DNA of 64,000 nt from an uncultured Candidatus Peribacteria bacterium (GTDB lineage: Bacteria; Patescibacteriota; Gracilibacteria; UBA1369; 2-02-FULL-48-14), in assembly GCA_964387375.1 (NCBI GenBank), contig CAYLWB010000002.1:27173-91172 (forward strand), given 5' to 3'. Each line of letters begins with the position of its first letter. Position 1 is the stretch's first letter. The notes under the pieces were generated by a model that ran no database searches, had not been told where the DNA came from, and worked only from the letters and a program-made list of their open reading frames with translations. Of this stretch, positions 11,733 through 36,755 are shown piece after piece. Both the position numbers and the translations under genes were made by a program.

Positions 11733-11807
11733 TGGGGCGTCGCCAAGTGGTAAGGCACCGGGTTTTGGTCCCGGCATTCGTGGGTTCGAATCCTACCGCC
11801 CCAGCCA
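11733..11807 (+). tRNA. tRNA-Gln (anticodon TTG) with encoded CCA
   Basis: Acceptor TGGGGCG/CGCCCCA; 3-bp D stem GCC/GGC; anticodon stem CCGGG/CCCGG with loop TTTTGGT; T arm GTGGG-TTCGAAT-CCTAC; discriminator G followed by CCA. Confidence 0.9.
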
Positions 11808-13327: not shown

Positions 13328-14677
13328 CTATATTTGGCTTTGAAAAACCTCACCCAAAAACACCTGCATTAGCGTTTCGGCATTGTTTGCGTTCTGTGCG
13401 ATTTTTTCCTCAAGTTGGGATACATACTCCATAAGCCTCCCAACTTTGGCAACGATCGCCCTTTGTTCGGCACGTGGGGGGAGAGGAAAAATCGTATTAG
13501 CTAGTTTTGATCCATTAAAGTTTGCTTGCCCACATTGTTGGACAATTTGAGGTTCGATTTGAGTTTCACGAAATATTCGAGTATTTAGATATAAATTTAC
13601 AAAATAGGGAGAAATTGATTCTTCAAAAAATCGGAGCCTGATAAGATATGAAGCGAAGGTATATTCATCATCTTCACCTTCGTAGACTCCTGTTTTTCCA
13701 ACAAGCTCCCAGCTATTTGTTCTATTGAACAACAGATCATCCTTTTTTAGTAAAAGTCTTGGCAAATCAGAACTTTCGAGTGATAAATTTTTTTTCGCAT
13801 TCAGGATAACTTTTCCATTAAAAATATTGCCCATTGCCAACACGGGAACACCTTTAGTATTTAAATCAGCTTTTTGCGAAGTACCATATTCTGACAGATA
13901 TTTTATCTCTCCCAAACGACACCAACCCCACCCCTCTGGCAACTCAAACGGAACCTCATCATCTGCAATTTTTGGCAAGGATTTTTCCTTTTTAATCTTC
14001 TTTTCCGCAATCAGCTTTTCTTTCTCGGCATTGATTTGTTCGAGTAGTCTGCTCGCAGGCTCGGTGATAGGATTTTCCGCTCGCCAGTCCTCTGTGAGTT
14101 TTCCTGAAATCGCATCTTGGAGGACTTGTTGGCGGAGAAGAGTCAGAATAGATTTCTGTGAAGAACATTCCTTCTCTAACCCTTCCTTCTTTTGTTTTAT
14201 TGAAATAAATTTTTTAGAAACTTCCTTTTGCTTGTCGACAGAAGGTAAATAAATCTCTTGATTGAAGAACTTTGTTTTTTGAAGCCGAATCCTTTGTGTT
14301 GTTCCATCACTTCCAAGTCTGCAAATTTCGTCAAACCATTTTGTGGAAGTAAGTTCCAAGAAAAAATGCTTATCAATCAGTCCCTCATTTAATCTAAAAT
14401 ACCAAAAGTCATTTGTGACAATTGCTCCATCCAACTCATCTCCGACGATTCCAAAAGCCCCGTTTCGAGCATCAATTCCAGATAAAATAAAATCTCCGAC
14501 CTTCACTTCATACATTTTTGATTTAATCTCATTCCCTTTTTTATGGCCTCGAAGCTTTACTCCTTTATGATGAAGTTGAATCGTGACAAGCTTATATTCT
14601 TTTTCATCTTCCAAGACAACAGGCCTCTTAATCCTTTTTAAAAAATCGCCAATTTTTACTTTTTGCCACTCACTCAT
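13328..14677 (-). CDS. hsdS: Type I restriction-modification specificity subunit
   Basis: Two target-recognition halves separated and followed by helical conserved spacers; 4-nt overlap with hsdM. Confidence 0.85.
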   Translation of the reverse strand: MSEWQKVKIGDFLKRIKRPVVLEDEKEYKLVTIQLHHKGVKLRGHKKGNEIKSKMYEVKVGDFILSGIDARNGAFGIVGDELDGAIVTNDFWYFRLNEGLIDKHFFLELTSTKWFDEICRLGSDGTTQRIRLQKTKFFNQEIYLPSVDKQKEVSKKFISIKQKKEGLEKECSSQKSILTLLRQQVLQDAISGKLTEDWRAENPITEPASRLLEQINAEKEKLIAEKKIKKEKSLPKIADDEVPFELPEGWGWCRLGEIKYLSEYGTSQKADLNTKGVPVLAMGNIFNGKVILNAKKNLSLESSDLPRLLLKKDDLLFNRTNSWELVGKTGVYEGEDDEYTFASYLIRLRFFEESISPYFVNLYLNTRIFRETQIEPQIVQQCGQANFNGSKLANTIFPLPPRAEQRAIVAKVGRLMEYVSQLEEKIAQNANNAETLMQVFLGEVFQSQI

Positions 14678-16104
14678 AACTCACCCTTTAAAGAGAAGAG
14701 TATCTTTTTGCTTTCTTCAAATGAAGCTTCTAGTTGAAAAATCAATTCTTCAGTTGATTGTTCAATTTCCACATCTTTCATATGTGGATTTTTAATATCA
14801 AGGCCCCAACCATTCTCTTGTATATCTTTAATCAAAACCTTCCACGAAACATCGCTTTCATTGCGCTCCTCCCACCACCGCTTAATCGGATCAAACTCTT
14901 TAAGCATGATCGGCTTTGTTTTTGAATATGACTTTTGACCCTCTGGTAGCCTGTGCTGGTAATAACAAACTTCAGAAGTGGGCTCACCTTTTGTGAAGAA
15001 AAGCAAGTTTGTTGCAACCGTTGCATACGGCGCAAAAACCGAATTAGGAAGCCGTATGATCGTATGAACATTACATTCTGTCAAAAGTCGCTCTCTAATT
15101 CTTTCCTTTACTCCATCTCCTGTTAGTGACCCATCAGGAAGAACAATCCCGGCTCTCCCTCCTGGTTTGAGCAGTTTAATGAACAGCAGTAAGAATAAAT
15201 CAGCTGTTTCTTTTGTTCTGAAAATTGCAGGAAAGTTAGTTAGGATGCCACCCTCAACAGTCCCGCCAAATGGAGGATTTGCCACAATGCAATCCACACG
15301 ATCTTTAGGGCCAATATCTTTCAAAGGTTGAGCTAAAGAATCACCTCTTTTGATATTTGTTGGGGCAGAAAGCCCATGGAGCATCATGTTCGTGATACAC
15401 AACATATGGGGCAACGGTTTTAATTCATTCCCTCTAACCGTTTGTTGTATCAATACTTCGTCTTCGGCTGTATGAACATCGTTCCTGCGAATATGTTCAA
15501 TGACGGATGTTAAAAACCCACCAGTACCACAGGCAGGGTCGTACACGCGCTCACCCAACCTTGGGTTCACCATTTCGACAATAAATTCAGTGATTGCCCT
15601 AGGGGTGTAAAACTCACCAGCATTTCCTGCACTTTGCAGGCTTCTAAGCAACTCTTCATATATCAAGCCAAATTGATCACGATCCGCCTTTCGGTTGAAA
15701 TCAATATCGTTAATCTTATTGATCACCTGACGTATCAGAGTTCCATTTTTCATGTAATTAAAGCTGTCTTCAAAAACAGACCTCACAATAAAGCCAGCTT
15801 CATTGTCACTTATTGTGTATTCCAAGTTCTTAAACTCAGGAAAGAGCTTGTTGTTAACGAAGCCCAATAATTCATCACCAGTAATTCCTTCGTCATCACT
15901 AGCCCATGTCCTCCAGCGAAGCTCTTCTGGAATTGGTGATTTATAATTGGCATCTAGCAGCTCTTTCTCTTCCTCTGTTTCATCAAAAATCTTCAAAAAT
16001 AACATCCATACCAACTGAGATAGTCTTTGAGCGTCACCATCCACCCCATGATCTTTACGCATGGTATTCTGAATAGATTTTATTATTCCAGATAGATTAG
16101 ACAT
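14674..16104 (-). CDS. hsdM: Type I R-M N6-adenine DNA methyltransferase subunit
   Basis: HsdM N-terminal domain, AdoMet motif DPACGTGGFL and catalytic NPPFGG. Confidence 0.9.
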   Translation of the reverse strand: MSNLSGIIKSIQNTMRKDHGVDGDAQRLSQLVWMLFLKIFDETEEEKELLDANYKSPIPEELRWRTWASDDEGITGDELLGFVNNKLFPEFKNLEYTISDNEAGFIVRSVFEDSFNYMKNGTLIRQVINKINDIDFNRKADRDQFGLIYEELLRSLQSAGNAGEFYTPRAITEFIVEMVNPRLGERVYDPACGTGGFLTSVIEHIRRNDVHTAEDEVLIQQTVRGNELKPLPHMLCITNMMLHGLSAPTNIKRGDSLAQPLKDIGPKDRVDCIVANPPFGGTVEGGILTNFPAIFRTKETADLFLLLFIKLLKPGGRAGIVLPDGSLTGDGVKERIRERLLTECNVHTIIRLPNSVFAPYATVATNLLFFTKGEPTSEVCYYQHRLPEGQKSYSKTKPIMLKEFDPIKRWWEERNESDVSWKVLIKDIQENGWGLDIKNPHMKDVEIEQSTEELIFQLEASFEESKKILFSLKGEL

Positions 16105-16109
16105 ACGTT

Positions 16110-18485
16110 TTAGACATTAATGTTGTAAATTTCCTCTTCAAGCTCTGAAACAGCTTTTAAATACTTTGCTCTCCCACCAAATTCGTTCACAAGCTCCACT
16201 GGTGATCCCAGGGCACTAAAAGGATCCACTCGCAGTATATTGATATTTTCAATGTGCTCTAATCCTTCATCTGCATATTTATCTAGAAGTGCATCCAACA
16301 CTTTACGAGCTTTTGCTGAATATTTTTTCAGGTAATTCTTCTTCCTGACGTGCTTTGCTCTTTCCGCTCTCGTCATGAGTTTTTTCTTGTCAAAGGCAAC
16401 ATGCATGATCATGTCGAATAGATCCAGCTCAATACCAATATCTTTCTGTAGCTCTTCAAGCATGATGCCCTGTGAAATCATCTCTTCAAAAATATAGTAC
16501 TTTCGTTTCTGCTTGCTCCAGTTCTGTAAAAAGTCATCTAATGATTCATATTTTTTCCTAATTTGCTTTCTTGTGTAGTCCTTAAGAGATTCCGTAATGA
16601 GTTTGCCATTTGCGTCTAAATACTGTGTGTGCTTATAAGCAACATCCACAGGAACTTCATCTACGTATATTTTTTCTCGATGACTTTCTTCGATTTCACC
16701 TGCCTCAATAATATCTGGACGCAATTCTGTCGGCGGTTCTTCTTCTATAACTAGCTCTGCACTGATATCGGCATCTTCAATCTCAACCTCAATCTCTTCT
16801 CCTTCTTTAATTTCTTTGACCTGAATTGGCTCCCCATCAAAGTCGGGATCGGCAAAAAGCTTGGTTACATTTCTGAAATCCAAAATCGTAAAGTGTGTTT
16901 TCCCAAATTCTTCATTGATACGTGTTCCCCGACCAATAATCTGTTTGAATTCTGTCATTGACCCAATGTTCGCATCTAAGACAACGAGCTTACAGGTCTG
17001 AGCATCAACTCCTGTCGTCATCAACTTGCTTGTTGTAACTATCGTTGGATATGGGTTCTCTGGATCAATGAAATTGTCCAGCTCCGCTTTTCCTTCCTTA
17101 TCATCTCCCGTTATTTTCATCACATATTTTCTATTTTCCTTTACAAGATCACTATTCAATTCGATTAGCGCCTCACGTATACGTTCTGCATGCTCAATGT
17201 CTACACAAAAAACTATCGTTTTTGCATAACGGTCCGTCTTTTTCAAATACTCGGTAATCTCCTTCGCTACTAACTTCGTACGCTTGGTGAGAACTATACT
17301 TCTATCGAAATCTTTTCCCGTATACTCTTTATCCTCAATTTCTCGCCCCTCTCTGTCCCTATCCATAATGCTTGGACGGTATCCACCAACATCTTTGTCT
17401 AATAAGACTTTAACAACCTTATATGGAGCCAAAAAACCATCCTCGATTCCCTGCTTAAGTGAGTAGGTATAAATAGGCTCCCCAAAGTATTCCTGATTCG
17501 ACACTTTCTGTGTCTCTTTTGGTGTCGCAGTAAGCCCAATGTGCACAGCATTTTCAAAATAATCTAATACTTCACGCCAAGCAGAGTCCGCCGAAGCGCT
17601 CCCTCTGTGACATTCGTCGATAACGATTAGGTCAAAGAAATCTGGGCTAAAAGCTTTATAAGCGTTTTTCTCTTCCTCGTTCCCAGTAAGCGACTGATAT
17701 AGTCCCATGTAAATTTCATGGGCTTTACTAATGTTGCCTCTTTGAATTTTGATCATTTTATCTCCAAAATGCTTAAAATCATTAACCATGGTTTGATCTA
17801 CCAGGATATTTCTATCTGCTAAAAACAAAATCCTTTTTGCCCGCCTTGATTTCCAAAGACGCCAAATAATTTGCCCCGCCACCAGGGTTTTACCTGTACC
17901 TGTGGCCATAACGGTAATGATTCGCTTTTGACCTTTCGCGACCGCCTCAACAGTGCGATTGATTGCTATCTCCTGATAGTATCTGGGCGTTTTATTGCTA
18001 CCATCAGAGTAATATGGTGTCTGAATTACTTTCTCAACAGCTTCATCAATTCCCTTTCCCTTTTTGTATCGCTCATACAGCTCTTCTGGGCTTGGCAATT
18101 CTTCCAGACTAAGTTGACGCTCCTTTCCTGTGAGGAAATCATGCTCTAGAAATCCATCTCCATTTGAACTATATGCAAATGGTACGTCTAAGATCTCTGC
18201 ATAATCTAGCGCTTGCTGAATGCCACTCGAAATTGAATGACTATTGTCCTTGGCTTCCAATACGGCAAGCGGCAGATTTCGCTTATAATAAAGGACGTAG
18301 TCAGCCTTTTTTGCATCACCACGCTTCACAATTCTACCTTGAACTTGAATTCTTCCATCTGTAAAAAAAACTTCCTCTCTTAGCTGAGTCATCTCATCCC
18401 ATCCAGCATTCCTGATCGCAGGCGTGATGTATTTCGTTCGTATGTCTTGTTCAGAAAGGGTTTTTTTGTCTATGCTCATTTGCAA
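16110..18485 (-). CDS. hsdR: Type I R-M restriction endonuclease/helicase subunit
   Basis: N-terminal nuclease region, SF2 motifs MATGTGKT and DECHRGS, and a C-terminal helical domain. Confidence 0.9.
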   Translation of the reverse strand: MQMSIDKKTLSEQDIRTKYITPAIRNAGWDEMTQLREEVFFTDGRIQVQGRIVKRGDAKKADYVLYYKRNLPLAVLEAKDNSHSISSGIQQALDYAEILDVPFAYSSNGDGFLEHDFLTGKERQLSLEELPSPEELYERYKKGKGIDEAVEKVIQTPYYSDGSNKTPRYYQEIAINRTVEAVAKGQKRIITVMATGTGKTLVAGQIIWRLWKSRRAKRILFLADRNILVDQTMVNDFKHFGDKMIKIQRGNISKAHEIYMGLYQSLTGNEEEKNAYKAFSPDFFDLIVIDECHRGSASADSAWREVLDYFENAVHIGLTATPKETQKVSNQEYFGEPIYTYSLKQGIEDGFLAPYKVVKVLLDKDVGGYRPSIMDRDREGREIEDKEYTGKDFDRSIVLTKRTKLVAKEITEYLKKTDRYAKTIVFCVDIEHAERIREALIELNSDLVKENRKYVMKITGDDKEGKAELDNFIDPENPYPTIVTTSKLMTTGVDAQTCKLVVLDANIGSMTEFKQIIGRGTRINEEFGKTHFTILDFRNVTKLFADPDFDGEPIQVKEIKEGEEIEVEIEDADISAELVIEEEPPTELRPDIIEAGEIEESHREKIYVDEVPVDVAYKHTQYLDANGKLITESLKDYTRKQIRKKYESLDDFLQNWSKQKRKYYIFEEMISQGIMLEELQKDIGIELDLFDMIMHVAFDKKKLMTRAERAKHVRKKNYLKKYSAKARKVLDALLDKYADEGLEHIENINILRVDPFSALGSPVELVNEFGGRAKYLKAVSELEEEIYNINV

Positions 18486-18608
18486 CTGTTATGCAGCACA
18501 GCTTATCAGAAAAGACTGCTTTTGGGAAAACTAACGCTCGAAAACTCCCTCAACACCAACTTTCGGTCTTTTCTATTCAAGAGCAGTCCATTTTGATATG
18601 ATCCCACC

Positions 18609-19469
18609 ATGTTTTTCGCAATGCCAGCTCAAACAATACGTATTTTCCTCCCTGAAGGCCATCCCCTGGGGTTAAGAATTGCAGATATTTCTGGGAAGCT
18701 CATTCAAGCTTTTGTTTTCTCAAGAAAGACTCTCAAGACGATGGCTAACCGTGCTGAACTCAGCAATACAGGCGTATATTTTCTATTTGGCCAAGAGCCA
18801 GATCAAGAGCTGCCAAGTGTCTACATTGGTGAAGCTGAAAACATTTATGCAAGGCTTATTCAGCACAACAAAGACGATACTAAAGATTTCTGGACGGAAA
18901 CTGTGTGCTTTGTGACGAAGGACAACTCACTCACAAAGGCTCATGTGAAATTTTTGGAGTACAATGCCTACAGAATCGCAAGAGATATTAAACGCTGCCA
19001 TGTGGCGAATAGCTCTATCCCTGCCTCCATAAAGCTTCCAGAAATGGATGAAGCAGATGCAGATAATTTCCTGATTGAGATGAAAATTATTCTCTCTTCG
19101 CTTGGGTGGAATATTCTTTTGCCTCCACAGCAAAGCGAACAATCTGAAGATGTGACGTACTCGTACTCAAAGGGTTCCGTTCATGCAAAAGGGAAATATC
19201 TTTCAGAGGGCTTTCTAATTTACAAAGGTTCTTGTGTTGAATCTAAAACACAAAAAAGTGCTGGCCCTTGGGTTCAAGCCCTAAGAGATGAGCTTCTTAA
19301 ATCTGGTGTTCTCAAAGAGGGCCCAAACCAGACCTACGAGCTGATGCAGGACTATCTATTTAAAAGTCCATCTGCAGCAGGAGCGATCGTACGGGGAGGA
19401 AATATTAACGGTTGGACTTTCTGGAAGGATAGTTCCGGAAAAACTTTAGACGAAAATGAACGTCAATGA
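18609..19469 (+). CDS. GIY-YIG nuclease-like protein with DUF4357-type C-terminal domain
   Basis: GVYFLFG ... VYIGEAENIYARLIQH matches the GIY-(x)n-YIG plus Arg pattern. The C-terminal segment SPSAAGAIVRGGNINGWTFWK resembles DUF4357. Confidence 0.65.
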   Translation: MFFAMPAQTIRIFLPEGHPLGLRIADISGKLIQAFVFSRKTLKTMANRAELSNTGVYFLFGQEPDQELPSVYIGEAENIYARLIQHNKDDTKDFWTETVCFVTKDNSLTKAHVKFLEYNAYRIARDIKRCHVANSSIPASIKLPEMDEADADNFLIEMKIILSSLGWNILLPPQQSEQSEDVTYSYSKGSVHAKGKYLSEGFLIYKGSCVESKTQKSAGPWVQALRDELLKSGVLKEGPNQTYELMQDYLFKSPSAAGAIVRGGNINGWTFWKDSSGKTLDENERQ

Positions 19470-20962
19470 CCATGAAAATCACCGCATCTCACCTCTACAA
19501 CTACGATGCCTGCCCCCACAGGGTTTGGCGGGATGCTCATGACAACCCGAACCTGAGAGATGATCCGAATGAATTCGTTCAGCTCCTCTGGGAGCAAGGG
19601 ACTCAGTACGAAAAAGAAGTCCTTGAAAACATGGAGGGCGACCAGTCTGTTTTAGACCTATCTATCCTTCCCAAGGAAGAGCGTGCACAGGCCACTTTGG
19701 ATGCTATGAATCGTAAAGAGCCGCTTATTTACCACGGACGCTTGGAAGTAGGTGAATTGCTTGGAGAACCCGACCTGCTGGAACTCCAGCCCAATGGGGA
19801 ATATATGCCTGTAGATATTAAATCAGGGATGGGTCTGGAGGGAGGAGACGATTTCACCGAAGGAAAGCCTAAACGGCACTATGCACTGCAACTGGCACTT
19901 TATGTAGATGCACTCAGGCAGCTTGGTTTTGCCACTCACTACCATGGAAAAATCTTCGACAGCACAGGTAAGATGGTTTTGTACGAACTCGACAAACCAA
20001 AAAGTAAAACGGCTAAGGTGACTTGGTGGGAAGAGTATGAAGAAGTCCTTATGGTCACGAGGAATATCTTGCTCAAAAAGATTCAAACAAAACCTGCACT
20101 TGGAGCAACATGCAAAATGTGCGTTTGGTATAGCAACTGCAAAAAAATCTGCATTGATGGAGACTATCTTTCCCTCATCCCTGAGCTTGGTCGTGCCAAG
20201 CAAGAGGCATTTGAAGGACTGGTTTCCACAGTTCATGAACTCGCAGCTTTGGATCCTGAAGATCACATTGATGCGAAAGGCAAAGTAAACTTGCCTGGCA
20301 TCGGTGAATCCACTCTTCGCAAACTCCATCAACGAGCTGAGCTGCTTTCCAGCGGATCCAAAGACATGCTGGTGACGACCCCCTACACACTCCCTCAGCG
20401 AAACATTGAACTCTATTTCGATATAGAGACCGATCCCACTCAAAACATAGTCTACCTCCACGGAGTTGTAGAGCGGAGAAACGGCGACAATGCAAATACC
20501 AAATTTCACTCCTTCCTAGCAAAGGGCGTGAGCAATGCTGAGGAGCGTGAAGCCTTTCAAAAGTTCTGGGATTATATCCGCTCTCTGGGTGGCGACTTTG
20601 CCGTCTACTACTACAGTAAATATGAACGGACCCAGTTCCGAAACTTAATGAAAAAGTTCCCGGGCATCGTTGATGAAGATGAGCTTGAGTACTTCTTTGA
20701 TAATGATGCATCCATAGACCTCTATGAGTTGGTCAAAAAGCACACCGAATGGCCTACCTACAACTACTCCGTAAAAACTTTGGCCCAACATTTAGGCTTT
20801 AATTGGCGAGATGCCAATCCCTCTGGGGCCGCCTCCATTCAATGGTTCAATGAATGGTGCAAAGACCAATCACACGAAAAAATGCAGCGGATTCTTGATT
20901 ACAATGAGGACGACTGTGTTGCCATGATGGTACTCAAAGACGAGCTGGCTAAGCACTGCTAG
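19466..20962 (+). CDS. RecB/Cas4-like PD-(D/E)xK nuclease fused to a DEDD (RNase H-fold) exonuclease; TM0106-like
   Basis: EPDLL...PVDIKSG nuclease motif; Cys cluster CKMCVWYSNCKKIC; exonuclease motifs YFDIETDP and YNEDDCVAM. ATGA overlap with the upstream gene. Confidence 0.65.
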   Translation: MTMKITASHLYNYDACPHRVWRDAHDNPNLRDDPNEFVQLLWEQGTQYEKEVLENMEGDQSVLDLSILPKEERAQATLDAMNRKEPLIYHGRLEVGELLGEPDLLELQPNGEYMPVDIKSGMGLEGGDDFTEGKPKRHYALQLALYVDALRQLGFATHYHGKIFDSTGKMVLYELDKPKSKTAKVTWWEEYEEVLMVTRNILLKKIQTKPALGATCKMCVWYSNCKKICIDGDYLSLIPELGRAKQEAFEGLVSTVHELAALDPEDHIDAKGKVNLPGIGESTLRKLHQRAELLSSGSKDMLVTTPYTLPQRNIELYFDIETDPTQNIVYLHGVVERRNGDNANTKFHSFLAKGVSNAEEREAFQKFWDYIRSLGGDFAVYYYSKYERTQFRNLMKKFPGIVDEDELEYFFDNDASIDLYELVKKHTEWPTYNYSVKTLAQHLGFNWRDANPSGAASIQWFNEWCKDQSHEKMQRILDYNEDDCVAMMVLKDELAKHC

Positions 20963-21015
20963 TCATTCAGAAATGCTCTCAGTCCCTCAATGAGCCTGTC
21001 GCAATTTAAAGCGAC

Positions 21016-22077
21016 CTAATCCACCTTTGGATATAAATCTGCAAAATCACTCGGGTTTATTCGATCTATGAAGCTCACACCTGCGGCCTTTAATGCTTGG
21101 TAGAATTTTAGACGCTGATCATCGTCATTGAGATAATTGAAGTATAGGGCCACACTCCCATCTGAGGAAGCCGTTAGGAATACTCGAGGACATTTATTGA
21201 AGTATTTTGGTTTGATAGAGCCTGCCTTCACACCCGTTCCGAAGGAAACTTCATCCGCCGTTTCTTGCAGGAAGTTTTTGAGCTTAATGAAGCAATCAAA
21301 TTGTTCCTTGCTCAGTCTGCTCTTGGCATCCGCAATCACGCTCTCCATTGTCCAAGATCTCTTGGGAGTATTACTGGTTTTCACTGCTATGTCTTTCTTC
21401 ACTTCAGCCCCGAAAATCTTCGGGATCATGATCTCAAAAGTATCGTGTTTGTAGTACTCAAGCTCCACCGCATAGACATCAAATTGGCTGTTCTGATTCA
21501 GGAATACGATGAGATCCTTGAGGCGATCGTGCAGTTTGTCCATCAACACAACGAATTTGAAATTCCCTTCATTCAGGTTGCTTTTCACGCTCTCCCAAAA
21601 GAAGCCCAGATCGTCTTGTTCAAATCCAAAGAACTCTTTGAGCTTCTCATCCACTGGCATGTGGAAAAACTTCTGGCTAGCTCGATCAATTGCAGATGTG
21701 AACTCTGGGAAATCACTCCCTCGTTTCCAGAGTGAAGCTCCGTAGTCCAAAACCTGAGCAACCACGGTTCTTTTATCTGCATTTTTGTACAACTTGGTTT
21801 CCACAAGATAGATGTTTCCTTCCGCATCAACTCCCAGAGCGTCGATGGGGCCGCTATCCGTCTGATACTCTCTCACTAAGATAAGAAGCTTGATGTCCTC
21901 CTTGATATCATAAAGCGGAATGGAACCTGGATTTTCGTAAATATACTGTTGCAGGTGATCCTCCTTGTCGAAATTGGACTGCTCAAGTTTCTGAGCATTT
22001 CTCCCTGATTGAGATACGATGATCGTCATATTTTTGGGTTTATAAACAAAAGGGACAACCTGACTTGGCAGTCCCAC
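21016..22077 (-). CDS. hypothetical protein with N-terminal PD-(D/E)xK (NucS/DUF91-like) motif
   Basis: IDALGVDAEGNIYLVETKLYKN gives the D...E-x-K signature; the rest is unrecognised. Confidence 0.5.
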   Translation of the reverse strand: MGLPSQVVPFVYKPKNMTIIVSQSGRNAQKLEQSNFDKEDHLQQYIYENPGSIPLYDIKEDIKLLILVREYQTDSGPIDALGVDAEGNIYLVETKLYKNADKRTVVAQVLDYGASLWKRGSDFPEFTSAIDRASQKFFHMPVDEKLKEFFGFEQDDLGFFWESVKSNLNEGNFKFVVLMDKLHDRLKDLIVFLNQNSQFDVYAVELEYYKHDTFEIMIPKIFGAEVKKDIAVKTSNTPKRSWTMESVIADAKSRLSKEQFDCFIKLKNFLQETADEVSFGTGVKAGSIKPKYFNKCPRVFLTASSDGSVALYFNYLNDDDQRLKFYQALKAAGVSFIDRINPSDFADLYPKVD

Positions 22078-22266: not shown

Positions 22267-23784
22267 TTAATGTCTAGTCTTAAATCGAATTATGTTCCCA
22301 CCTGTACTCTCTTTGGTGAATCCCCCATAAAACTGATGCATTGTGTTTATAAGCATGGAAATTGCGTCTGGTAAGTCATCGTGCTTCAGCCCCTCATGGA
22401 AGTTCAGCAACTGCCGTATTGGGTAATCGTAGTCTTTTGGAAAAAAGACATGACCTCTCTCCATTGGAAATGTGGCTGCCTGCAAGCGACCTACTTTATC
22501 TGTTGAGTGATTTTTTACCCTACACACATGGATATCACCATTTTCAGACAATTCCGTTTCAATATTGCTAGCCAATAGTTCCTGCGCCCCATTGGATTCC
22601 ACGATGATTTTGATGGTCAATTTTCCCTTCTGACCGTACTTATAGATGAACCATTTTAGTTTTTGGATTAAATCTGGCATCGAAAGCCTCCTTTCTAAAT
22701 ATTTCGGTAAAAAATGGACTTCATATCTTCCCCTAATAAGATAAACATAGGCCGCTACTACGGCCGTAAAGTCTGCACTTTCTTTCAGGGAGAAGGCGGG
22801 GTCTATGGCAATCACCATTTCTTCCAAACGGCACTCAGGTCCACTTGGCAACTCTTCTTCTCGCTTTATCCATTTTGGATGGACGATCATCTCGTATTCA
22901 GAGCTGGGCATCAGCAAGTACTCTCTATTAAACATGAGCGTTCCCCCAACTTTCATTCGCAATTGTTCCATTTTATTATCTGGAAATTTCTCAGGCCAGC
23001 GAGATTTTCCATTTTCATCCAGCAGAGGGATTTTGAGGAAGAGGCCTTCACCCCCCTTATCTACCAAACTCTCCTTTAGCCTTAGAAGGTAGGACTCTTC
23101 ATGGATTATGTTTCCGATAAAAAAGAAACGTGTTCGTAAATTGTGTCCCGCTGGCATCAGATCCGCTAGTATTTTTCGATACATTTTGTCACGTATATCT
23201 TGGGATCGTACCGAATCCACATCTTCAAGATCATCACAAATGATGAGTTCGGGACGGTTATGTCCGAACTTTATCCCACGATACCCCTGATTCTGAGATA
23301 CGATGGTTATTCTTGCGCCGTAGTAAGGAAGATCAACGTCGGTACTGGACCATGTCTGACCTTCGCCATTTTTTTCAATTTTAAACGGCCCAAGATCTTG
23401 TTTTAACAGCTCATTCTTCCCTAATTCGATCTGTATGTTTTCCAAATAACGCTCTGCTTGGTCTTTCGTCTTTGCAACAATGAGAACGAACTTGAGTTTT
23501 TGAACGCCCATGATGGACCATAGAGGGAGGCAGGTTGTAAAAACTGTTGTTTTAGCGGACTCACGAAAGGCACTTACAATCACGTACTTGAACTTGGTTT
23601 CTTCGCAAGCGTCAAAGTAGCTTTGGTGGAAAGGTGCGAAATTGTACTCCATATGTTCGTGGAAGTAGACGGACATATAGGCCTTGATGGAGTGGCGAGT
23701 AAGTTCTCGGCGGACTTTTGCACTTTTCAGTGCTTCAAAGAGGGGTTCATTCATTGGGTGGTGGGGTAAAGGAATTTTTGGCAT
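22267..23784 (-). CDS. phage terminase large subunit-like protein
   Basis: ATPase region (VSAFRESAKTT, LIICDDLED) and a C-terminal RNase H-like nuclease region (IAIDPAFS, VESNGAQ, KHDDLPDAI). An alternative ATG lies at 23754. Confidence 0.7.
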   Translation of the reverse strand: MPKIPLPHHPMNEPLFEALKSAKVRRELTRHSIKAYMSVYFHEHMEYNFAPFHQSYFDACEETKFKYVIVSAFRESAKTTVFTTCLPLWSIMGVQKLKFVLIVAKTKDQAERYLENIQIELGKNELLKQDLGPFKIEKNGEGQTWSSTDVDLPYYGARITIVSQNQGYRGIKFGHNRPELIICDDLEDVDSVRSQDIRDKMYRKILADLMPAGHNLRTRFFFIGNIIHEESYLLRLKESLVDKGGEGLFLKIPLLDENGKSRWPEKFPDNKMEQLRMKVGGTLMFNREYLLMPSSEYEMIVHPKWIKREEELPSGPECRLEEMVIAIDPAFSLKESADFTAVVAAYVYLIRGRYEVHFLPKYLERRLSMPDLIQKLKWFIYKYGQKGKLTIKIIVESNGAQELLASNIETELSENGDIHVCRVKNHSTDKVGRLQAATFPMERGHVFFPKDYDYPIRQLLNFHEGLKHDDLPDAISMLINTMHQFYGGFTKESTGGNIIRFKTRH

Positions 23785-24169
23785 TCAAAAGCTTGAGAGC
23801 ATTTTGTAAAATTTCTGTTTCTTTGTTATTGAGTATGTCACTTCTCTTCTGAAGAAGTTGTTTTTGTGCTAGTTTGGAGTTGTAATCAATGTGATGATTT
23901 TTTAGCCAGTAAATTATCCCAGTCATATTTCCCGACTGGATGGCTTTTATTAGTTGTGCTTCAGCGACGTCATTCACCTCATCTTTACCGCCTTGCAGGG
24001 CAGTTTCAGCGGCTTCTCTGAACTCTTGATCATGGTCGATCCACCTGTAATAGGTGGCTCTACTGACGCCCATTTTTTCACAAGCCGCACGGACGATCGG
24101 CATTTTCTTCAACTGGTTTATCAGTTGTTCTTTGCGAATATCCTGCTTGGTTTCTGTTGTCATGGTCAT
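23747..24169 (-). CDS. HTH protein, terminase small subunit-like
   Basis: N-terminal HTH (ACEKMGVSRATYYRWID), placed immediately upstream of the TerL-like gene. Confidence 0.5.
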   Translation of the reverse strand: MTMTTETKQDIRKEQLINQLKKMPIVRAACEKMGVSRATYYRWIDHDQEFREAAETALQGGKDEVNDVAEAQLIKAIQSGNMTGIIYWLKNHHIDYNSKLAQKQLLQKRSDILNNKETEILQNALKLLNAKNSFTPPPNE

Positions 24170-24939
24170 GGCGTTAAGAAGATAGGCTCAATCCCTGTCA
24201 TTTTTTTGAACCGATCGACGATGACTTGGCAGTACTTCGGTTCAAGCTCCATAGCAAAGCATCGGCGTTTGGCCTGCTCTGCAGCAATCAAGGTGCTACC
24301 CGAGCCCGCAAATGGGTCAAAGACGGTGCCGCCAATTTTTGAGGAATTTAAAATCAAGTGACGCATGAGCGGCATAGGTTTCATAGTTGGGTGGAGTTTG
24401 TTATTCTTCGTCTTTGGATAAATTAGAATGTTCTTATCCTTGGACTTGTAAAACTTGTGAGTCCCATGCCACCCGTAAGCGATAAGCTCTGTCTGTGGTA
24501 GGTAGTCGAGCCTTCCTATGTTTGCTGATGTTTTTAGCCAAATGAGAAGCTGCTTGAACAAAAACTGCTCAGCCTTCAGCCCGTCTAGGAGAGCGTGAAT
24601 CATGCGGTCGCAGTTGAAGATATAAAAAGCATTTTTCTCTGCAAGATACGGCTTACAGGCCCTTAGCCAATCCTGTGTGAACTTCGTGTATTCTGCGTGA
24701 GATTGAAGTTGGTCATTGGCAATGGGAATGTGACGGCTAGACAGTTCATCTTTGCTTTGGACTACGGCCACTCCATACGGCACATCTGTGGCGATTAGAT
24801 CTATTTTCTGGCCTTGCATGAGCTTTTGAACATCTGCTTCACTTGTGGCATCGCCACAAAGTAAAGAATGTTCACCGAGTTGTATTAAGCTCCCTCGCTC
24901 AATTGAGTTTGAGGGCCTTTGAATTGGTGAATTTTTCAT
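24166..24939 (-). CDS. DNA methyltransferase (N4-C/N6-A, beta-class order)
   Basis: Catalytic DVPYGV followed by AdoMet motif FDPFAGSGSTLIAAE. Confidence 0.85.
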   Translation of the reverse strand: MKNSPIQRPSNSIERGSLIQLGEHSLLCGDATSEADVQKLMQGQKIDLIATDVPYGVAVVQSKDELSSRHIPIANDQLQSHAEYTKFTQDWLRACKPYLAEKNAFYIFNCDRMIHALLDGLKAEQFLFKQLLIWLKTSANIGRLDYLPQTELIAYGWHGTHKFYKSKDKNILIYPKTKNNKLHPTMKPMPLMRHLILNSSKIGGTVFDPFAGSGSTLIAAEQAKRRCFAMELEPKYCQVIVDRFKKMTGIEPIFLTP

Positions 24940-26170
24940 AGCGTGTGATGATAAGTGAGGCGAATAAAGGATCTAGTTCAACGAGAAGGCACCGACGGTT
25001 CATTTGCTGGCATGCTGCCATGATTGAGCCACTACCTCCGAAGAGTTCCAGGACGTAATCGCCTGGTTTGGTGCAGCGTCTGAGCATGCGTTCGTAGATA
25101 GTGGGACTTTTCTCCGTTGGATGTGAATATTTGGCTGAAGGGAGCCGTTTTTCTAACCAAATGTCTAACAAATCTAGGATGTCGTCGTGTGCACGGTTGC
25201 CTGTGCCGACCTCTTTGTTCATGATTTCTGCAAAGGAAGTGTGATAGCTGGAAAGAAATGGTTTACCTCGTGTGCCGTAGCAACAAGGCTCATAGCATCG
25301 GTTGAATGCGATTTGAGGAGTGACCATTGCGGAATTTTTCAGCCATAGGCATACCCGTTGCTGTTTGATTCCGCACTCCGCATACAAACTTTGGATCAGT
25401 CCAATGTAGTTCTGATCCGAGAATGTGAAGTAATGGCAGTCTGGTTGAGAAACGGCTACAGTGTTTTCTAAAATCTTGCTGAGGAAGCTTCGGTAATCCT
25501 CATCTGATTTGTTGTCATCGACGACAGTCCCGCCGTATTTTCCTTTTGTACCTATCCCCTTGTTATAGTCCACTTTTAGGTTATAAGGTGGATCGAGTGT
25601 GACGAAGTGAACTTTTTTGTCGCCAACAAGTTTTTGCACGACTTTTGGATCAGTGCTGTCCCCACAGGCCAGCAGATGCTGGCCTAACTGATAGTAGTCG
25701 CCTTCCTTTACGAAAACTTCTTTGATCTCCTTCAGTTCTTCTTCTAGATCGAAATCGTCATCTTCTGTTTCGGATACGTCGTCCCAGAGATGCTGAAGCT
25801 CCTCAGAAGAGAATCCAACATCTGTGAGAAGGTCTAGATCGAACTCACGGAGAAGGTCAAAATCCCATTCTCCTGTATTTTTGTTCAATCTTATATTCAA
25901 TTCACGCTCTCGGTCTTCATCAGGAATGTTCACATAGAGTACTGGTATTTGATCAAAGCCTAAATCAGCCGCTGCTTTCATTCTCTGGTGTCCTCCAATT
26001 ACGATGTTTTTCCGATTGGGAGCGTTGTTGACGATAATTGGCCCCAACAAACCGAAGCGTTTTATACTTTCCTTGATCTGTTCAAATGCTTCTGGGGTTA
26101 TTTTTCTAGGATTGTAGGGAGAAGGGTTAAGATTTTTAATTGGAACGAGAACTGATTTTGGATTGTCCAT
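24899..26170 (-). CDS. ParB-like nuclease domain fused to DNA methyltransferase
   Basis: ParB/Srx motif VIGGHQRMKAA, then LDPPYN and ELFGGSGSIMAA. ATG at 26170 (MDNPKSV...) is preferred over the longer ORF. Confidence 0.85.
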   Translation of the reverse strand: MDNPKSVLVPIKNLNPSPYNPRKITPEAFEQIKESIKRFGLLGPIIVNNAPNRKNIVIGGHQRMKAAADLGFDQIPVLYVNIPDEDRERELNIRLNKNTGEWDFDLLREFDLDLLTDVGFSSEELQHLWDDVSETEDDDFDLEEELKEIKEVFVKEGDYYQLGQHLLACGDSTDPKVVQKLVGDKKVHFVTLDPPYNLKVDYNKGIGTKGKYGGTVVDDNKSDEDYRSFLSKILENTVAVSQPDCHYFTFSDQNYIGLIQSLYAECGIKQQRVCLWLKNSAMVTPQIAFNRCYEPCCYGTRGKPFLSSYHTSFAEIMNKEVGTGNRAHDDILDLLDIWLEKRLPSAKYSHPTEKSPTIYERMLRRCTKPGDYVLELFGGSGSIMAACQQMNRRCLLVELDPLFASLIITRYEKFTNSKALKLN

Positions 26171-26261
26171 TTGAGTGGGGTTAAAAAATCGTCCCCATTT
26201 TGCTATGAACAAAAAAACGGGAGAATCTCCCGTTTTCAAACACACTTCTCCCGTTTTTGAA

Positions 26262-34625: not shown

Positions 34626-34635
34626 CTTATTTTGA

Positions 34636-34857
34636 TTAAATAATTTCTCCTCTCTTCTCAAGCATCATGTGGTGAATAGTGGCAATTTGGGTCCAAATTG
34701 CGATGAGAATAAGAATTGCAGTGCAAGCTAAAGCGTCTGCTTTTGTAATTCCGAATACAAGATTGTCTGCTCCACCGAGGATGGAAGCGACGAAGGTAAG
34801 CACCCCGGTGAGTCCTACTAAGACACTGATGATGTGCATTGATTTAGATAGTTTCAT
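34636..34857 (-). CDS. small membrane protein
   Basis: 73 aa with two hydrophobic helices, inside the copper operon. Confidence 0.5.
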   Translation of the reverse strand: MKLSKSMHIISVLVGLTGVLTFVASILGGADNLVFGITKADALACTAILILIAIWTQIATIHHMMLEKRGEII

Positions 34858-36742: not shown

Positions 36743-36755
36743 TGTATTAATTGGA

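What the first reader, a model, noticed from the sequence alone, without database searches (positions are those of the whole stretch)
18609..20962. Two-gene nuclease operon diverging from hsdR: GIY-YIG/DUF4357 protein plus RecB/Cas4-like nuclease fused to a DEDD exonuclease
The two genes overlap by ATGA and are transcribed divergently from the Type I R-M operon across a 123-bp shared intergenic region.
- Gene 1 has GVY...YIGE...R, a GIY-YIG core.
- Gene 2 combines three parts: EPDLL...VDIK (PD-(D/E)xK), a 4-Cys cluster CKMCVWYSNCKKIC (Cas4/AddB-like Fe-S), and FDIETD / YNEDD (3'-5' exonuclease).
Pairing an endonuclease with a processive, Cas4-like end-processing enzyme beside an R-M system suggests an accessory or independent anti-phage module. 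I know of no named system with this composition.
Basis: partly seen in the sequence, partly recalled or inferred. Interest (0 to 1): 0.65.

Follow-up and report, generated by a model that had tools for sequence, protein, structure and literature searches.

The report
Two independent nucleases in defence island
Two adjacent nuclease genes that looked like a new two-part anti-phage system are two separate, already catalogued candidate defence genes that sit side by side in the variable cargo bay of a mobile genetic island.

Summary
Both ORFs, all quoted motifs, the ATGA junction and the 123-bp divergent spacer to hsdR are present.

Gene 1 is a full-length member of PADLOC candidate PDC-S14 (GIY-YIG + DUF4357/RAMA-like). 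Gene 2 is a full-length member of the curated TM0106/TIGR03491 family (COG2251), whose Cas4-like + PolB-type DEDDy exonuclease fusion was catalogued in 2014.

The pair is not a conserved system:
- 0 of 71 gene-2 loci carry a gene-1 relative.
- 0 of 56 gene-1 loci carry a gene-2 relative.
- The only other pair is in one close relative (L161). Its gene 2 is 94-95% identical to those of islands that lack gene 1.

Both genes lie in the cargo slot, between terminase and serine recombinase, of a mobile phage-derived island at tRNA-Gln, probably in a Peregrinibacteria genome. In sibling islands that slot holds Type I R-M, MmeI-like enzymes, SIR2 + HerA-like genes, a Shedu-type gene or SNF2 nucleases.

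Best reading: two independent stand-alone defence-type nucleases, co-transcribed here by accretion. Gene 2 recurs beside many different motor and nuclease genes, so it may be a promiscuous accessory exonuclease. Novelty is low and no function has been tested.

The parts
18609..19469 (+). Gene 1: stand-alone nuclease with an N-terminal beta-rich domain, a GIY-YIG core (residues ~55-140) and a C-terminal DUF4357/RAMA-like domain (residues ~184-286). It is a PADLOC PDC-S14 family member. Its start is 18609 or 18621.
   Evidence: PADLOC PDC-S14 E 6e-96 over the full length. Pfam DUF4357 E 1e-19; GIY-YIG 18 bits, below the gathering score. 17/22 relatives hit GIY-YIG, 22/22 DUF4357, 18/22 RAMA. Y57, Y72, R82, H86 and E117 are invariant and N134 is >=90% conserved. 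AF2 pLDDT 90.6. The best BFVD fold hits are GIY-YIG proteins, probability 0.98 and 0.94.
19466..20962 (+). Gene 2: TM0106-family nuclease with an N-terminal Cas4-like PD-(D/E)xK domain carrying 4 conserved Cys (residues ~1-230), a helical linker, and a C-terminal PolB-type DEDDy 3'-5' exonuclease domain (residues ~314-495). Its probable true start is 19472.
   Evidence: NCBIfam TIGR03491 229.9 bits against a cutoff of 97.45, residues 5-492 on model positions 1-460 of 462. Pfam PDDEXK_1 and RNase_H_2. C16, C216, C219, C225, K119, Q142, Y146, D319, E321, D418, Y479 and D483 are invariant; D103 and D117 are >=90% conserved. AF2 pLDDT 90.4. Foldseek hits: Cas4 4r5q probability 1.0, SSO0001, AdnAB, EXO5, Pol-alpha exonuclease domain, 3'hExo.
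18486..18608 (.). Divergent intergenic spacer between hsdR and gene 1. The hsdR-proximal ~75-90 nt are shared with sibling island L164. The gene-1-proximal part belongs to the gene 1 indel.
   Evidence: No sigma-70 consensus promoter was found, which is uninformative.
13328..18485 (-). Type I R-M operon: hsdS 13328-14677, hsdM 14674-16104, hsdR 16110-18485 (EcoEI-type C-terminus). It is neighbouring cargo in the same slot.
   Evidence: Pfam hits for hsdR: ResIII, HSDR_N, EcoEI_R_C. hsdM is 90% and hsdR 88% identical to L164, but hsdS only 38%.
11922..13301 (-). Large serine recombinase at the left end of the island, next to tRNA-Gln (11733-11807).
   Evidence: Pfam Resolvase + Recombinase + Zn_ribbon_recom. 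tRNA-Gln. Relatives are 72-91% identical, and some are named Candidatus Peregrinibacteria bacterium by their source.
21016..22077 (-). NucS-like PD-(D/E)xK protein related to PADLOC PDC-S11 ('Madara'). It converges on gene 2 and is another variable cargo gene: present in L162, L163 and L172, absent in L161 and L164.
   Evidence: PADLOC PDC-S11 E 2.4e-17. NucS_C, weak. Presence and absence in siblings. Madara validation: bioRxiv 10.64898/2026.09.05.749240.
22267..26245 (-). Phage-derived backbone module of the island: TerL 22267-23784, TerS 23747-24169, DNA MTase 24166-24939, ParB-MTase 24899-26245.
   Evidence: PHROG phrog_38 terminase large subunit E 3e-75, TerS families, phrog_498 MTase. The same module recurs in sibling islands.

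Best explanation
The locus holds two separate, self-sufficient nuclease genes that ended up next to each other. It is not a dedicated two-gene system. Both sit in the variable cargo slot, between terminase and serine recombinase, of a mobile phage-derived island of about 18-20 kb integrated beside tRNA-Gln. The host is probably a Candidatus Peregrinibacteria (CPR) genome. Sibling islands fill that slot with different defence systems.

**Gene 1 (PDC-S14 family).**
- Shown: it has an intact GIY-YIG catalytic set and a DUF4357/RAMA-like C-terminal domain.
- Inferred: it is a stand-alone restriction-like DNA endonuclease. It has no regular partner methyltransferase, and DUF4357 is otherwise fused to Type IV modules (GmrSD, McrB). 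It therefore most likely recognises foreign DNA through its C-terminal domain, possibly modified DNA, and cuts it with the GIY-YIG domain.

**Gene 2 (TM0106 family).**
- Shown: it joins a Cas4-like domain to a PolB-type DEDDy domain, and the catalytic residues of both are conserved.
- Inferred: the Cas4-like domain is an Fe-S 5'-3' nuclease and the DEDDy domain a 3'-5' exonuclease, so the protein can degrade DNA ends with both polarities. It would act on ends made by other nucleases (Type I R-M, gene 1, the NucS-like neighbour) or on linear phage DNA.

**Arrangement here.** Gene 1 lies in a discrete indel of about 930 bp between the hsdR promoter region and the gene 2 start. The two genes are now probably co-transcribed, so any cooperation between them is opportunistic rather than obligate.
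For: **Family identities.**. Conserved catalytic residues. Folds.

**No co-occurrence.**
- tblastn finds gene 1 in 0/80 gene-2 loci, 71 of which have >=900 nt upstream.
- It finds gene 2 in 0/80 gene-1 loci, of which 56 have >=600 nt and 35 have >=1.5 kb downstream.
- Both results hold at E 0.01.
- Neighbour clustering shows no conserved partner for either gene: the top cluster covers 6/79 and 6/71 loci.

**Homologue series.** Gene 2 runs smoothly from 100% to 45% identity, while gene 1 drops from 88% to 45%.

**Sibling islands with gene 2 but no gene 1.** L162, L163, L164, L172, L174/175 and the P0126 and P0135 loci.

**Clean indel.** L164 aligns with the window through hsdR to 18529 and again from 19459.

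**Natural experiment.** L161 (pair present) has a gene 2 94-95% identical, and a TerL 94% identical, to L164/L174 (gene 1 absent). The window's gene 2 clusters with L162/L163, which also lack gene 1.

**Recombinase-anchored sample.** The slot holds MmeI-like + DUF87 + gene 2 (L172), SIR2 + DUF87 (HerA-like) (L173), Type I R-M + gene 2 (L174), PLD-SNF2 + MTase + a small Cas4-like protein (L176), or a Shedu-type SduA_C protein (L177). Gene 2 is therefore cargo, present in 2 of 5, and no DUF4357 protein appears in any.

**Island mobility.** Host flank proteins are 38-58% identical, against 72-88% for island proteins.

**Not a phage gene.** Gene 2 has no hit in 50,697 phage genomes and only 2 in IMG/VR.

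**DUF4357 and Type IV modules.** PMC4619093 and PMC11090510.
Against: - The pair has persisted with the same tight junction in two loci whose DNA is about 25% diverged (window and L161). Some selective benefit of adjacency cannot be excluded.
- GIY-YIG-superfamily proteins of other families sit immediately beside TM0106 genes in at least four further loci: L026, L020, L061 (weak) and the P0135 locus (T5orf172).
- The samples are the best-scoring 80 loci of larger sets, and many gene-1 contigs are short.
- Distant TM0106 subfamilies were only spot-checked.
- No activity of either family has been demonstrated. PDC-S14 is only a computational candidate.
- The modification-dependence of gene 1 and the dual-polarity exonuclease activity of gene 2 are inferences from domain content.
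Confidence: 0.72

Rival explanations
1. Gene 2 is an accessory exonuclease of restriction-type systems. It is recruited next to ATP-driven restriction or helicase-nuclease systems (here Type I R-M) and finishes off the DNA ends they create. This would resemble the way RecBCD or AddAB degrades restricted DNA in other bacteria. Gene 1 is an unrelated insertion between the two partners.
For: - In every sibling island that carries gene 2, it directly abuts R-M or helicase cargo:
  - EcoEI-type Type I R-M, divergent (window, L164, L174).
  - EcoR124-type Type I R-M, co-directional with a 17-nt gap (P0126 locus).
  - MmeI/Type ISP-like enzyme (L162, L172, P0135 locus).
  - SNF2 helicase overlapping the gene 2 start by 4 nt (L163).
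  -.
- Islands whose cargo is SIR2 + DUF87 (HerA-like) or a Shedu-type SduA_C protein lack gene 2.
- L176 has a small Cas4-like PDDEXK_1 protein beside its PLD-SNF2/MTase cargo.
- In unrelated genomes the tightly coupled upstream genes are SNF2/ZorD-like helicases (5 loci), AAA_13, HerA, an SF1 helicase-endonuclease, GmrSD and a Schlafen-type helicase.
- Long family members are fused or paired with DNA2/NAM7 or DEAD helicases.
- Precedent: UvrD-Cas4-like fusions associate with Type III R-M (PMC5704561).
Against: - Most of the 76 sampled TM0106 loci have no recognisable R-M or helicase within +/-2 genes: N6_Mtase in 3, ResIII/helicase in 7.
- The sibling islands are related by descent, so there are few independent observations.
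- No statistical baseline is available.
- Adjacency inside a cargo hotspot is expected by chance.
Confidence: 0.25
2. One reading: gene 1 and gene 2 form a dedicated two-gene 'cut and chew' anti-phage system. The GIY-YIG endonuclease makes breaks, the Cas4-like/DEDD enzyme resects them, and each needs the other.
For: - The genes are tightly coupled (4-nt overlap or 2-nt gap) and share a strand.
- The pair is retained in L161 despite about 25% DNA divergence and different flanking cargo.
- Other GIY-YIG-superfamily genes flank TM0106 genes in L020, L026, L061 and the P0135 locus.
Against: - Co-occurrence is 0/71 and 0/56.
- Near-identical gene 2 copies are maintained without gene 1 in L164/L174, an arrangement seen on 21 contigs.
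- Presence of gene 1 is polyphyletic on the gene 2 tree.
- PADLOC models gene 1 as a single-gene candidate.
- Neither family has a conserved partner.
Confidence: 0.08
3. Gene 2 serves the mobile island itself. It would be a phage-type recombination or replication exonuclease, or a DNA-end processing function for packaging. It would not serve host defence.
For: - Gene 2 lies next to the terminase module in many islands across CPR and other phyla: L002, L020, L036, L040, L051, L161-164.
- Phages often encode Cas4-like nucleases (PMC5704561).
Against: - Gene 2 is absent from 3 of 5 islands sampled through the recombinase.
- Its position relative to the backbone module varies.
- It has no hit in 50,697 phage genomes and only 2 in 2.9 million viral contigs.
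- Most family members sit in chromosomes or plasmids without terminase or recombinase nearby.
Confidence: 0.07
4. Gene 2 is a housekeeping or DNA-damage repair nuclease that happens to lie in the island.
For: Some distant, long family members sit opposite a WYL regulator. In Novosphingobium the gene lies next to SOS-type genes: an SOS-response peptidase, AlkB, DinB and an error-prone polymerase.
Against: - The family is sporadic and moderate in size: 1,370 representatives at E<=1e-10 among 1.84 billion.
- It is often plasmid-borne (71 plasmids).
- Here it lies inside a mobile island, and it is present or absent among closely related islands.
Confidence: 0.06

Closest known systems
PADLOC phage-defence candidate PDC-S14 (GIY-YIG + DUF4357 single-gene candidate)
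   Same: Gene 1 matches the family models end to end (E 6e-96). It has the same domain order and, like the family, no conserved partner gene.
   Different: There is no structural difference. The family is an untested computational candidate. One paper says it overlaps GAO_29, and in 100 P. aeruginosa strains it showed no association with resistance (PMC10855318). This copy is 45% or less identical to all but one known relative.
TM0106 family RecB-like putative nuclease (NCBIfam TIGR03491; COG2251; RNase H-like family F.13 of PMC3985635)
   Same: Gene 2 scores 229.9 bits against a cutoff of 97.45 over the whole model. It has the same Cas4-like/DUF83 + PF13482 exonuclease architecture noted in 2014.
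   Different: This is the short stand-alone form of about 500 aa. Other members carry or pair with DNA2/NAM7, DEAD or tandem AAA helicase modules. No member has been characterised.
Cas4 / solo-Cas4 nucleases (e.g. Pcal_0546, PDB 4r5q; SSO0001, 4ic1)
   Same: The N-terminal half shares the fold (Foldseek probability 1.0), the RecB motifs (D103, D117-x-K119, Q142...Y146) and the 1+3 cysteine pattern.
   Different: - The Cas4 equivalog score is 24 bits against a cutoff of 65.
- No cas genes were noted among the ORFs examined, and no CRISPR array was detected in the window.
- Gene 2 is fused to a DEDDy exonuclease that Cas4 lacks.
GIY-YIG restriction endonucleases and DUF4357-bearing Type IV enzymes (GmrSD, McrB fusions)
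   Same: Gene 1 has the same catalytic superfamily. The same C-terminal DUF4357 module is found on GmrSD and McrB homologues (PMC4619093, PMC11090510).
   Different: Gene 1 has no GmrS/GmrD, McrB GTPase or HNH parts. No partner methyltransferase is regularly adjacent: 4 MTase hits among 116 neighbours. Specificity for modified DNA is inferred, not shown.
Defence-cargo hotspots of mobile elements (P2/P4 hotspots, PICI-type satellites, prophage morons; comparison from general knowledge)
   Same: A conserved backbone (recombinase, TerL/TerS, MTases) surrounds a slot whose content is swapped among otherwise similar elements. The slot is filled with defence genes, including relatives of validated systems: R-M, SIR2 + HerA-like, Shedu-type, Madara-like.
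   Different: - The backbone has a large serine recombinase plus TerL and TerS.
- No capsid, portal or tail genes are recognised.
- The hosts are CPR bacteria.
- Whether the island is a satellite, a decayed prophage or something else was not resolved.

Membership tests
GIY-YIG nuclease superfamily (gene 1) | GIY and YIG motifs about 10-15 residues apart, followed by the catalytic Arg, His, Glu and Asn | tested here: met
   G55-V-Y57, Y72-I-G74, R82, H86 and E117 are invariant, and N134 is >=90% conserved, in 22 sequences. The spacing matches the I-TevI/UvrC pattern, which I recalled from memory.
GIY-YIG nuclease superfamily (gene 1) | Match to Pfam PF01541 at or above the gathering score | tested here: inconclusive
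   The window protein scores 18.0 bits against a cutoff of 22.6. 17 of 22 relatives hit at E<0.01, best 4.9e-05.
GIY-YIG nuclease superfamily (gene 1) | GIY-YIG alpha/beta fold | tested here: inconclusive
   The AF2 model (pLDDT 90.6) shows the order beta-beta-alpha-beta-alpha over residues 55-127. The whole-chain PDB search gave nothing significant. The best BFVD hits are GIY-YIG proteins, probability 0.98 and 0.94, E about 3e-3.
PADLOC PDC-S14 | Full-length match to the family HMMs | tested here: met
   PDLC04925 E 6.1e-96, residues 4-285 on model positions 12-296 of 301.
PADLOC PDC-S14 | Anti-phage activity | not testable with these tools
   No experimental validation was found in the searchable literature.
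TM0106 / TIGR03491 (gene 2) | Score above the curated cutoff with end-to-end coverage | tested here: met
   229.9 bits against 97.45; residues 5-492 on model positions 1-460 of 462.
TM0106 / TIGR03491 (gene 2) | Cas4-like PD-(D/E)xK domain with 4 Cys, plus a PF13482 DEDD exonuclease domain | tested here: met
   Pfam PDDEXK_1 33.6 bits and RNase_H_2 94.8 bits. Conserved residues. Fold matches to both halves.
CRISPR-associated Cas4 | Equivalog model TIGR00372 above its cutoff | tested here: not met
   24.2 bits against a cutoff of 65.
CRISPR-associated Cas4 | Adjacent to cas1/cas2 or a CRISPR array | tested here: not met
   No cas genes among the annotated ORFs from 11.9 to 47.8 kb. No array by TRF and no CRISPR-DR family by Rfam in the whole window.
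Dedicated two-gene defence system (gene 1 + gene 2) | The two families co-occur as neighbours across unrelated genomes | tested here: not met
   0/71 and 0/56 informative loci. The only other pair is in the close relative L161.
Dedicated two-gene defence system (gene 1 + gene 2) | Neither gene is maintained without the other among close relatives | tested here: not met
   L164/L174 keep an intact gene 2, 94-95% identical to that of L161, without gene 1, on 21 contigs.
Defence-island resident (both genes) | Neighbourhood enriched in known defence genes | tested here: inconclusive
   In the sibling islands the slot is filled with R-M, SIR2 + HerA-like, Shedu-type and Madara-like genes. In the wider samples only a minority of +/-1 or +/-2 neighbours are defence or MGE genes, and no background rate was available.

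The most novel reading that the evidence does not exclude
TM0106-family proteins may be promiscuous 'clean-up' exonucleases. Many different restriction-type and helicase-nuclease defence systems, and stand-alone endonucleases such as GIY-YIG proteins, would recruit them as a downstream partner. They would supply two-polarity degradation of broken foreign DNA, perhaps replacing RecBCD/AddAB in small CPR genomes. On this reading the gene 1 - gene 2 junction here is one of several independent endonuclease + TM0106 unions, and the whole hsdRMS / gene 1 / gene 2 / NucS-like cluster works as a cooperative degradation unit.
Probability: 0.18. Interest if true: 0.6.

Novelty: new member of a known kind. 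Interest (0 to 1): 0.3.

Why it matters
As posed, a new two-gene anti-phage system, the finding does not hold, so its direct importance is low. Three things remain useful.

1. It gives a clean natural experiment showing that PDC-S14 and TM0106 genes are separable. This argues against annotating such neighbours as a system.
2. It places the uncharacterised TM0106 family in the same slot that related mobile islands fill with relatives of validated defence systems (R-M, SIR2 + HerA-like, Shedu-type, Madara-like). It also places the family next to many different motor and nuclease genes elsewhere. This is the best available lead to its function and makes it a reasonable candidate for testing.
3. 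It exposes a family of compact islands in Peregrinibacteria and other CPR bacteria that carry a terminase and a serine recombinase and have a defence-cargo hotspot. Little appears to be known about defence and mobile elements in these organisms (my impression from general knowledge, not checked here).

Tried and rejected
- **att repeat search.** I looked for a repeat of the tRNA-Gln region of 14 nt or more elsewhere in the window and found none. This is uninformative, because large serine recombinases do not need long repeats. The island limits were set from host-flank comparison instead.
- **Promoter and terminator scan of 18300-21200.** No promoter was found in the spacer, and terminator-like sites were at chance level. 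It gives no evidence either way on operon structure.
- **Foldseek of the whole gene 1 model against the PDB.** Nothing significant, probably because the model has several domains. The viral library gave weak GIY-YIG hits.
- **PDB sequence search.** Only Cas4 4r5q at E 0.005 for gene 2, and nothing for gene 1.
- **'Gene 2 is a phage backbone gene'.** I considered this after the first sibling loci. I rejected it after the phage and IMG/VR searches and the recombinase-anchored sample.
- **Synonymous-site comparison.** The aim was to decide between one ancient origin of the pair and a transfer of gene 1. Third-position identity is 45% for both genes, which is saturated, so the test is uninformative.
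- **Literature searches.** Searches for TM0106/TIGR03491 found nothing relevant, and the PF13482/RNase_H_2 search was swamped by human RNASEH2 papers.
- **Cas4 phylogenomics paper (PMC5704561).** The passages I searched do not describe this fusion.


Full report
**1. Observation**

- The junction CAATGACCATGAAA gives the ATGA overlap.
- hsdR (16110-18485, minus strand) diverges across a 123-bp spacer.
- Every quoted motif is present, and most are conserved in the family alignments.

Three details need adjusting.
- The fourth conserved cysteine of gene 2 is the N-terminal C16, not C229. This gives the canonical Cas4 pattern of 1 + 3 cysteines.
- All relatives of gene 2 begin MKIT, and DNA homology with sibling loci starts at 19471/19472. 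The functional start is probably ATG 19472, 2 nt after the gene 1 stop.
- Gene 1 probably starts at M1 or M5. The family alignment does not support the 242-aa form called in public assemblies.

**2. What each gene is**

Gene 1:
- It matches PADLOC candidate PDC-S14 over its whole length (E 6e-96).
- It matches Pfam DUF4357 (E 1e-19). Its GIY-YIG match is sub-threshold (18 bits against 22.6).
- Across 22 family members, 22 hit DUF4357, 18 hit the related RAMA domain and 17 hit GIY-YIG.
- Y57, Y72, R82, H86 and E117 are invariant and N134 is nearly so. From memory, these correspond to the canonical GIY-YIG catalytic set.
- The AF2 model is confident (pLDDT 90.6). It shows an N-terminal beta-rich domain, a beta-beta-alpha-beta-alpha core and a separate C-terminal domain.
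- The PDB fold search was uninformative. The best viral-library hits are GIY-YIG proteins, probability 0.98 and 0.94.

Gene 2:
- It is a full-length member of NCBIfam TIGR03491, 'TM0106 family RecB-like putative nuclease' (229.9 bits against a cutoff of 97.45). It also matches Pfam PDDEXK_1 and RNase_H_2.
- K119, Q142, Y146, C16, C216, C219, C225, D319, E321, D418, Y479 and D483 are invariant in 21 sequences down to 46% identity. D103 and D117 are conserved in at least 90% of them.
- The AF2 model (pLDDT 90.4) matches Cas4 structures (4r5q, 4ic1), AdnAB and EXO5 with its N-terminal half. Its C-terminal half matches B-family polymerase exonuclease domains and DEDD exonucleases.
- This fusion was catalogued in 2014 as RNase H-like family F.13 = COG2251: PF13482 plus a DUF83 PD-(D/E)xK domain, often with tandem AAA domains (PMC3985635).

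Both genes therefore belong to named but uncharacterised families.

**3. Do the two families travel together?**

They do not.
- I fetched 80 loci around gene-2 relatives from species-representative genomes, and 80 loci around gene-1 relatives from metagenomes.
- tblastn finds no gene-1 relative in any gene-2 locus. 71 of these have at least 900 nt upstream.
- It finds no gene-2 relative in any gene-1 locus. 56 of these have at least 600 nt downstream, and 35 have at least 1.5 kb.
- Both results hold at E 0.01.
- Clustering of the +/-4 neighbours shows no conserved partner for either family. The commonest neighbour cluster occurs in 6 of 79 and 6 of 71 loci.
- The homologue lists already hinted at this. 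Gene 2 has a smooth series from 100% to 45% identity, while gene 1 falls from 88% straight to 45%.

**4. Close relatives: a natural experiment**

Context look-ups for the nearest relatives gave the following.

| Locus | Arrangement around gene 2 |
|---|---|
| L161 | gene 1 (88% identical) + gene 2: the only other pair |
| L162 | recombinase - DUF87 - MmeI/Type ISP-like enzyme, divergent from gene 2 |
| L163 | recombinase, then a 1237-aa SNF2 helicase overlapping the gene 2 start by 4 nt |
| L164 | recombinase - hsdS - hsdM - hsdR, divergent from gene 2 |
| P0126 locus | a different (EcoR124-type) Type I operon, with gene 2 17 nt downstream |
| P0135 locus | MmeI-like enzyme ... HTH, divergent from gene 2, which is followed by a T5orf172 protein |

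- At the DNA level, L164 aligns with the window through hsdR up to 18529 and again from 19459. Gene 1 therefore occupies a discrete indel of about 930 bp.
- All siblings begin to align with the window exactly at the gene 2 start.
- On a tree of gene 2, L161 (pair present) groups with L164/L174 (gene 1 absent) at 94-95% protein identity. Its TerL is also 94% identical to theirs.
- The window's gene 2 groups with L162/L163 (85-86%), which also lack gene 1.
- The arrangement without gene 1 is common: the L174 recombinase is carried by 21 contigs, and most of the places not shown have the same neighbours.

Gene 2 is thus kept intact without gene 1, and presence of gene 1 is scattered on the gene 2 tree. 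Synonymous sites between the window and L161 are saturated for both genes. I could not tell one old origin with several precise losses from a transfer of gene 1.

**5. The setting: a mobile island with a cargo slot**

- The region from tRNA-Gln (11733-11807) to about 30-31 kb is an island. It carries a large serine recombinase, TerL (phrog_38, E 3e-75), TerS, a DNA MTase, a ParB-MTase and a LexA-like repressor.
- No capsid, portal or tail genes were recognised. Beyond about 32.5 kb lie copper-resistance and transporter genes.
- Sibling islands sit at the same site next to the same host genes. Host flank proteins are only 38-58% identical, while island proteins are 72-88% identical, so the island is mobile.
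- The nearest relatives come from Candidatus Peribacteria/Peregrinibacteria genomes.

To avoid bias from selecting on gene 2, I sampled five islands through the recombinase (72-86% identity). The slot between TerL and the recombinase holds the following.

| Locus | Cargo in the slot | Gene 2 |
|---|---|---|
| L172 | MmeI-like enzyme + DUF87 + NucS-like | present |
| L173 | SIR2 + DUF87 (HerA-like) | absent |
| L174 | Type I R-M | present |
| L176 | PLD-SNF2 + MmeI-like MTase + a 249-aa Cas4-like protein | absent |
| L177 | SduA_C protein (Shedu type) | absent |

- Gene 2 is therefore cargo (2 of 5), not backbone. No DUF4357 protein (gene-1 relative) appears in any of the five.
- The NucS-like neighbour (21016-22077) is also variable cargo. 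It is related to PDC-S11, which was recently validated as the modification-dependent system 'Madara'.

**6. TM0106 more widely**

- The family is moderate in size: 1,370 cluster representatives at E<=1e-10.
- It has no hit in 50,697 phage genomes and only 2 in IMG/VR.
- It occurs on 71 plasmids.
- Among the immediate neighbours of 76 diverse members, a minority are defence or mobile-element genes: ResIII/helicase 7, of which 5 are SNF2 proteins that strongly resemble ZorD; integrase 3; GmrSD 2; Mrr 2; GIY-YIG 2; Type ISP 1; AAA_13 1; Schlafen helicase 1.
- The rest are miscellaneous genes.
- Genes packed directly against its start include an AAA_13 ATPase, an SNF2 helicase, GmrSD, an SF1 helicase-endonuclease and a HerA-like ATPase. 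A small GIY-YIG protein lies about 340 nt upstream in L026.
- Long members are fused or paired with DNA2/NAM7 or DEAD helicases opposite a WYL regulator. In Novosphingobium the gene lies beside SOS-type genes.

**7. Most likely mechanism**

Shown:
- Both proteins keep complete catalytic motifs.
- The two genes are separable.
- Both lie in a swap-prone defence-cargo slot of a mobile island.

Inferred:
- Gene 1 is a stand-alone restriction-like endonuclease. Its DUF4357/RAMA-like domain, a module also fused to the Type IV enzymes GmrSD and McrB, would select the target, possibly modified DNA. Its GIY-YIG domain would cut.
- The lack of a regular cognate methyltransferase fits this: 4 MTase hits among 116 neighbours.
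- Gene 2 combines a Cas4-like Fe-S 5'-3' nuclease with a 3'-5' DEDDy exonuclease. It probably degrades DNA ends with both polarities.
- Here the two genes are probably co-transcribed because gene 1 sits in front of gene 2. Any cooperation between them is opportunistic.

**8. Rivals**

| Rival | Confidence |
|---|---|
| Gene 2 is an accessory exonuclease of restriction or helicase-type systems | about 0.25 |
| Gene 2 is an island-maintenance function | about 0.07 |
| Gene 2 is a housekeeping repair nuclease | about 0.06 |

- The first rival is the most serious. It is supported by consistent adjacency in sibling islands and by the helicase fusions. It is weakened by the many family members with no such neighbour and by the lack of a baseline.
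GIY-YIG-superfamily proteins of several different families flank TM0106 genes in L020, L026, L061 and the P0135 locus. I could not assess whether this exceeds what a defence neighbourhood gives by chance.

**9. Novelty and limits**

- Both genes are new, rather divergent members of known candidate families. Their pairing is a local accident of cargo accretion.
- The samples are the best-scoring 80 loci of larger sets, many metagenome contigs are short, and distant subfamilies were only spot-checked.
- No function in either family has been tested experimentally.

Noticed in passing
window 11733-~31000: An integrative island of about 18-20 kb lies beside tRNA-Gln. It carries a large serine recombinase, TerL + TerS, two DNA MTases (one fused to ParB) and a LexA-like repressor, but no recognisable capsid, portal or tail genes. 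All or most of the same compact backbone recurs in Peregrinibacteria/Peribacteria, Woesebacteria, other Patescibacteria, an Omnitrophota MAG and a gammaproteobacterial MAG (L002, L020, L036, L040, L051, L161-164, L172-178). Host flank proteins are 38-58% identical, against 72-88% for island proteins. Whether it is a satellite, a decayed prophage or another kind of element is unresolved.
   Followed up: partly
window 13328-22077 and loci L162-L164, L172-L177: The slot between TerL and the recombinase is a defence-cargo hotspot. Its contents vary among islands whose recombinases are 72-86% identical to the window's: two families of Type I R-M, an MmeI/Type ISP-like enzyme + DUF87, SIR2 + DUF87 (HerA-like), a Shedu-type SduA_C protein, PLD-SNF2 + MTase + a small Cas4-like protein, a long SNF2 helicase, PDC-S14, TM0106 and a NucS-like gene.
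   Followed up: partly
window 21016-22077 (-): A 353-aa NucS-like PD-(D/E)xK protein matches PADLOC PDC-S11 (E 2e-17). That family was recently validated as the modification-dependent defence system 'Madara' (bioRxiv 10.64898/2026.09.05.749240). The gene is present in L162, L163 and L172 and absent in L161 and L164.
   Followed up: partly
window 28598-29644 (-) and 28065-28559 (+): A second variable region lies at the right end of the island. It holds a 348-aa protein whose C-terminal half matches PADLOC PDC-S02 (E 1e-55; NucS_C/YhcG-type PD-(D/E)xK), and next to it a 164-aa ORF with no family hit. The island thus carries at least five nuclease-type genes.
   Followed up: no
window 13328-14677 (-) vs L164: hsdM and hsdR are 88-90% identical to those of L164, but hsdS is only 38% identical. 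The specificity subunit has been swapped within an otherwise conserved Type I system.
   Followed up: no
L163:6291-10004, L028:7264-9999, L020:7735-10005, L074:8298-10001, L064:5785-9984, L066:7661-9973: In unrelated genomes a large NTPase or nuclease gene ends at or within a few bases of the TM0106 start codon: an SNF2/ZorD-like helicase, an AAA_13 ATPase, GmrSD, an SF1 helicase-endonuclease or a HerA-like ATPase. These may be the real multi-gene systems that use TM0106 as a partner.
   Followed up: partly
L026:9353-9664, L020:11513-11962, L061:532-2124, P0135 locus: GIY-YIG-superfamily proteins of several different families flank TM0106 genes: a 103-aa and a 149-aa GIY-YIG protein, a Schlafen-type helicase with a weak N-terminal GIY-YIG match, and a T5orf172/MUG113 protein. 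The PDC-S14 family itself never does so outside the window's close relative. No baseline was available to judge enrichment.
   Followed up: partly
L167, L169 (plasmids CP090551.1, NZ_CP017077.1): Distant TM0106 members (~24% identity) are fused or paired with a DNA2/NAM7-type helicase and face a WYL-domain regulator. In Novosphingobium the locus sits beside an SOS-response peptidase, AlkB, DinB and an error-prone polymerase. This suggests DNA-damage-linked regulation for that subfamily.
   Followed up: no
window 32499-38642 (-): A copper-resistance cluster (P-type ATPase with a heavy-metal-binding domain, multicopper oxidase, beta-propeller protein) lies just outside the right end of the island. 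Related genes also flank the islands in L173 and L177, so the insertion site is conserved on both sides.
   Followed up: partly
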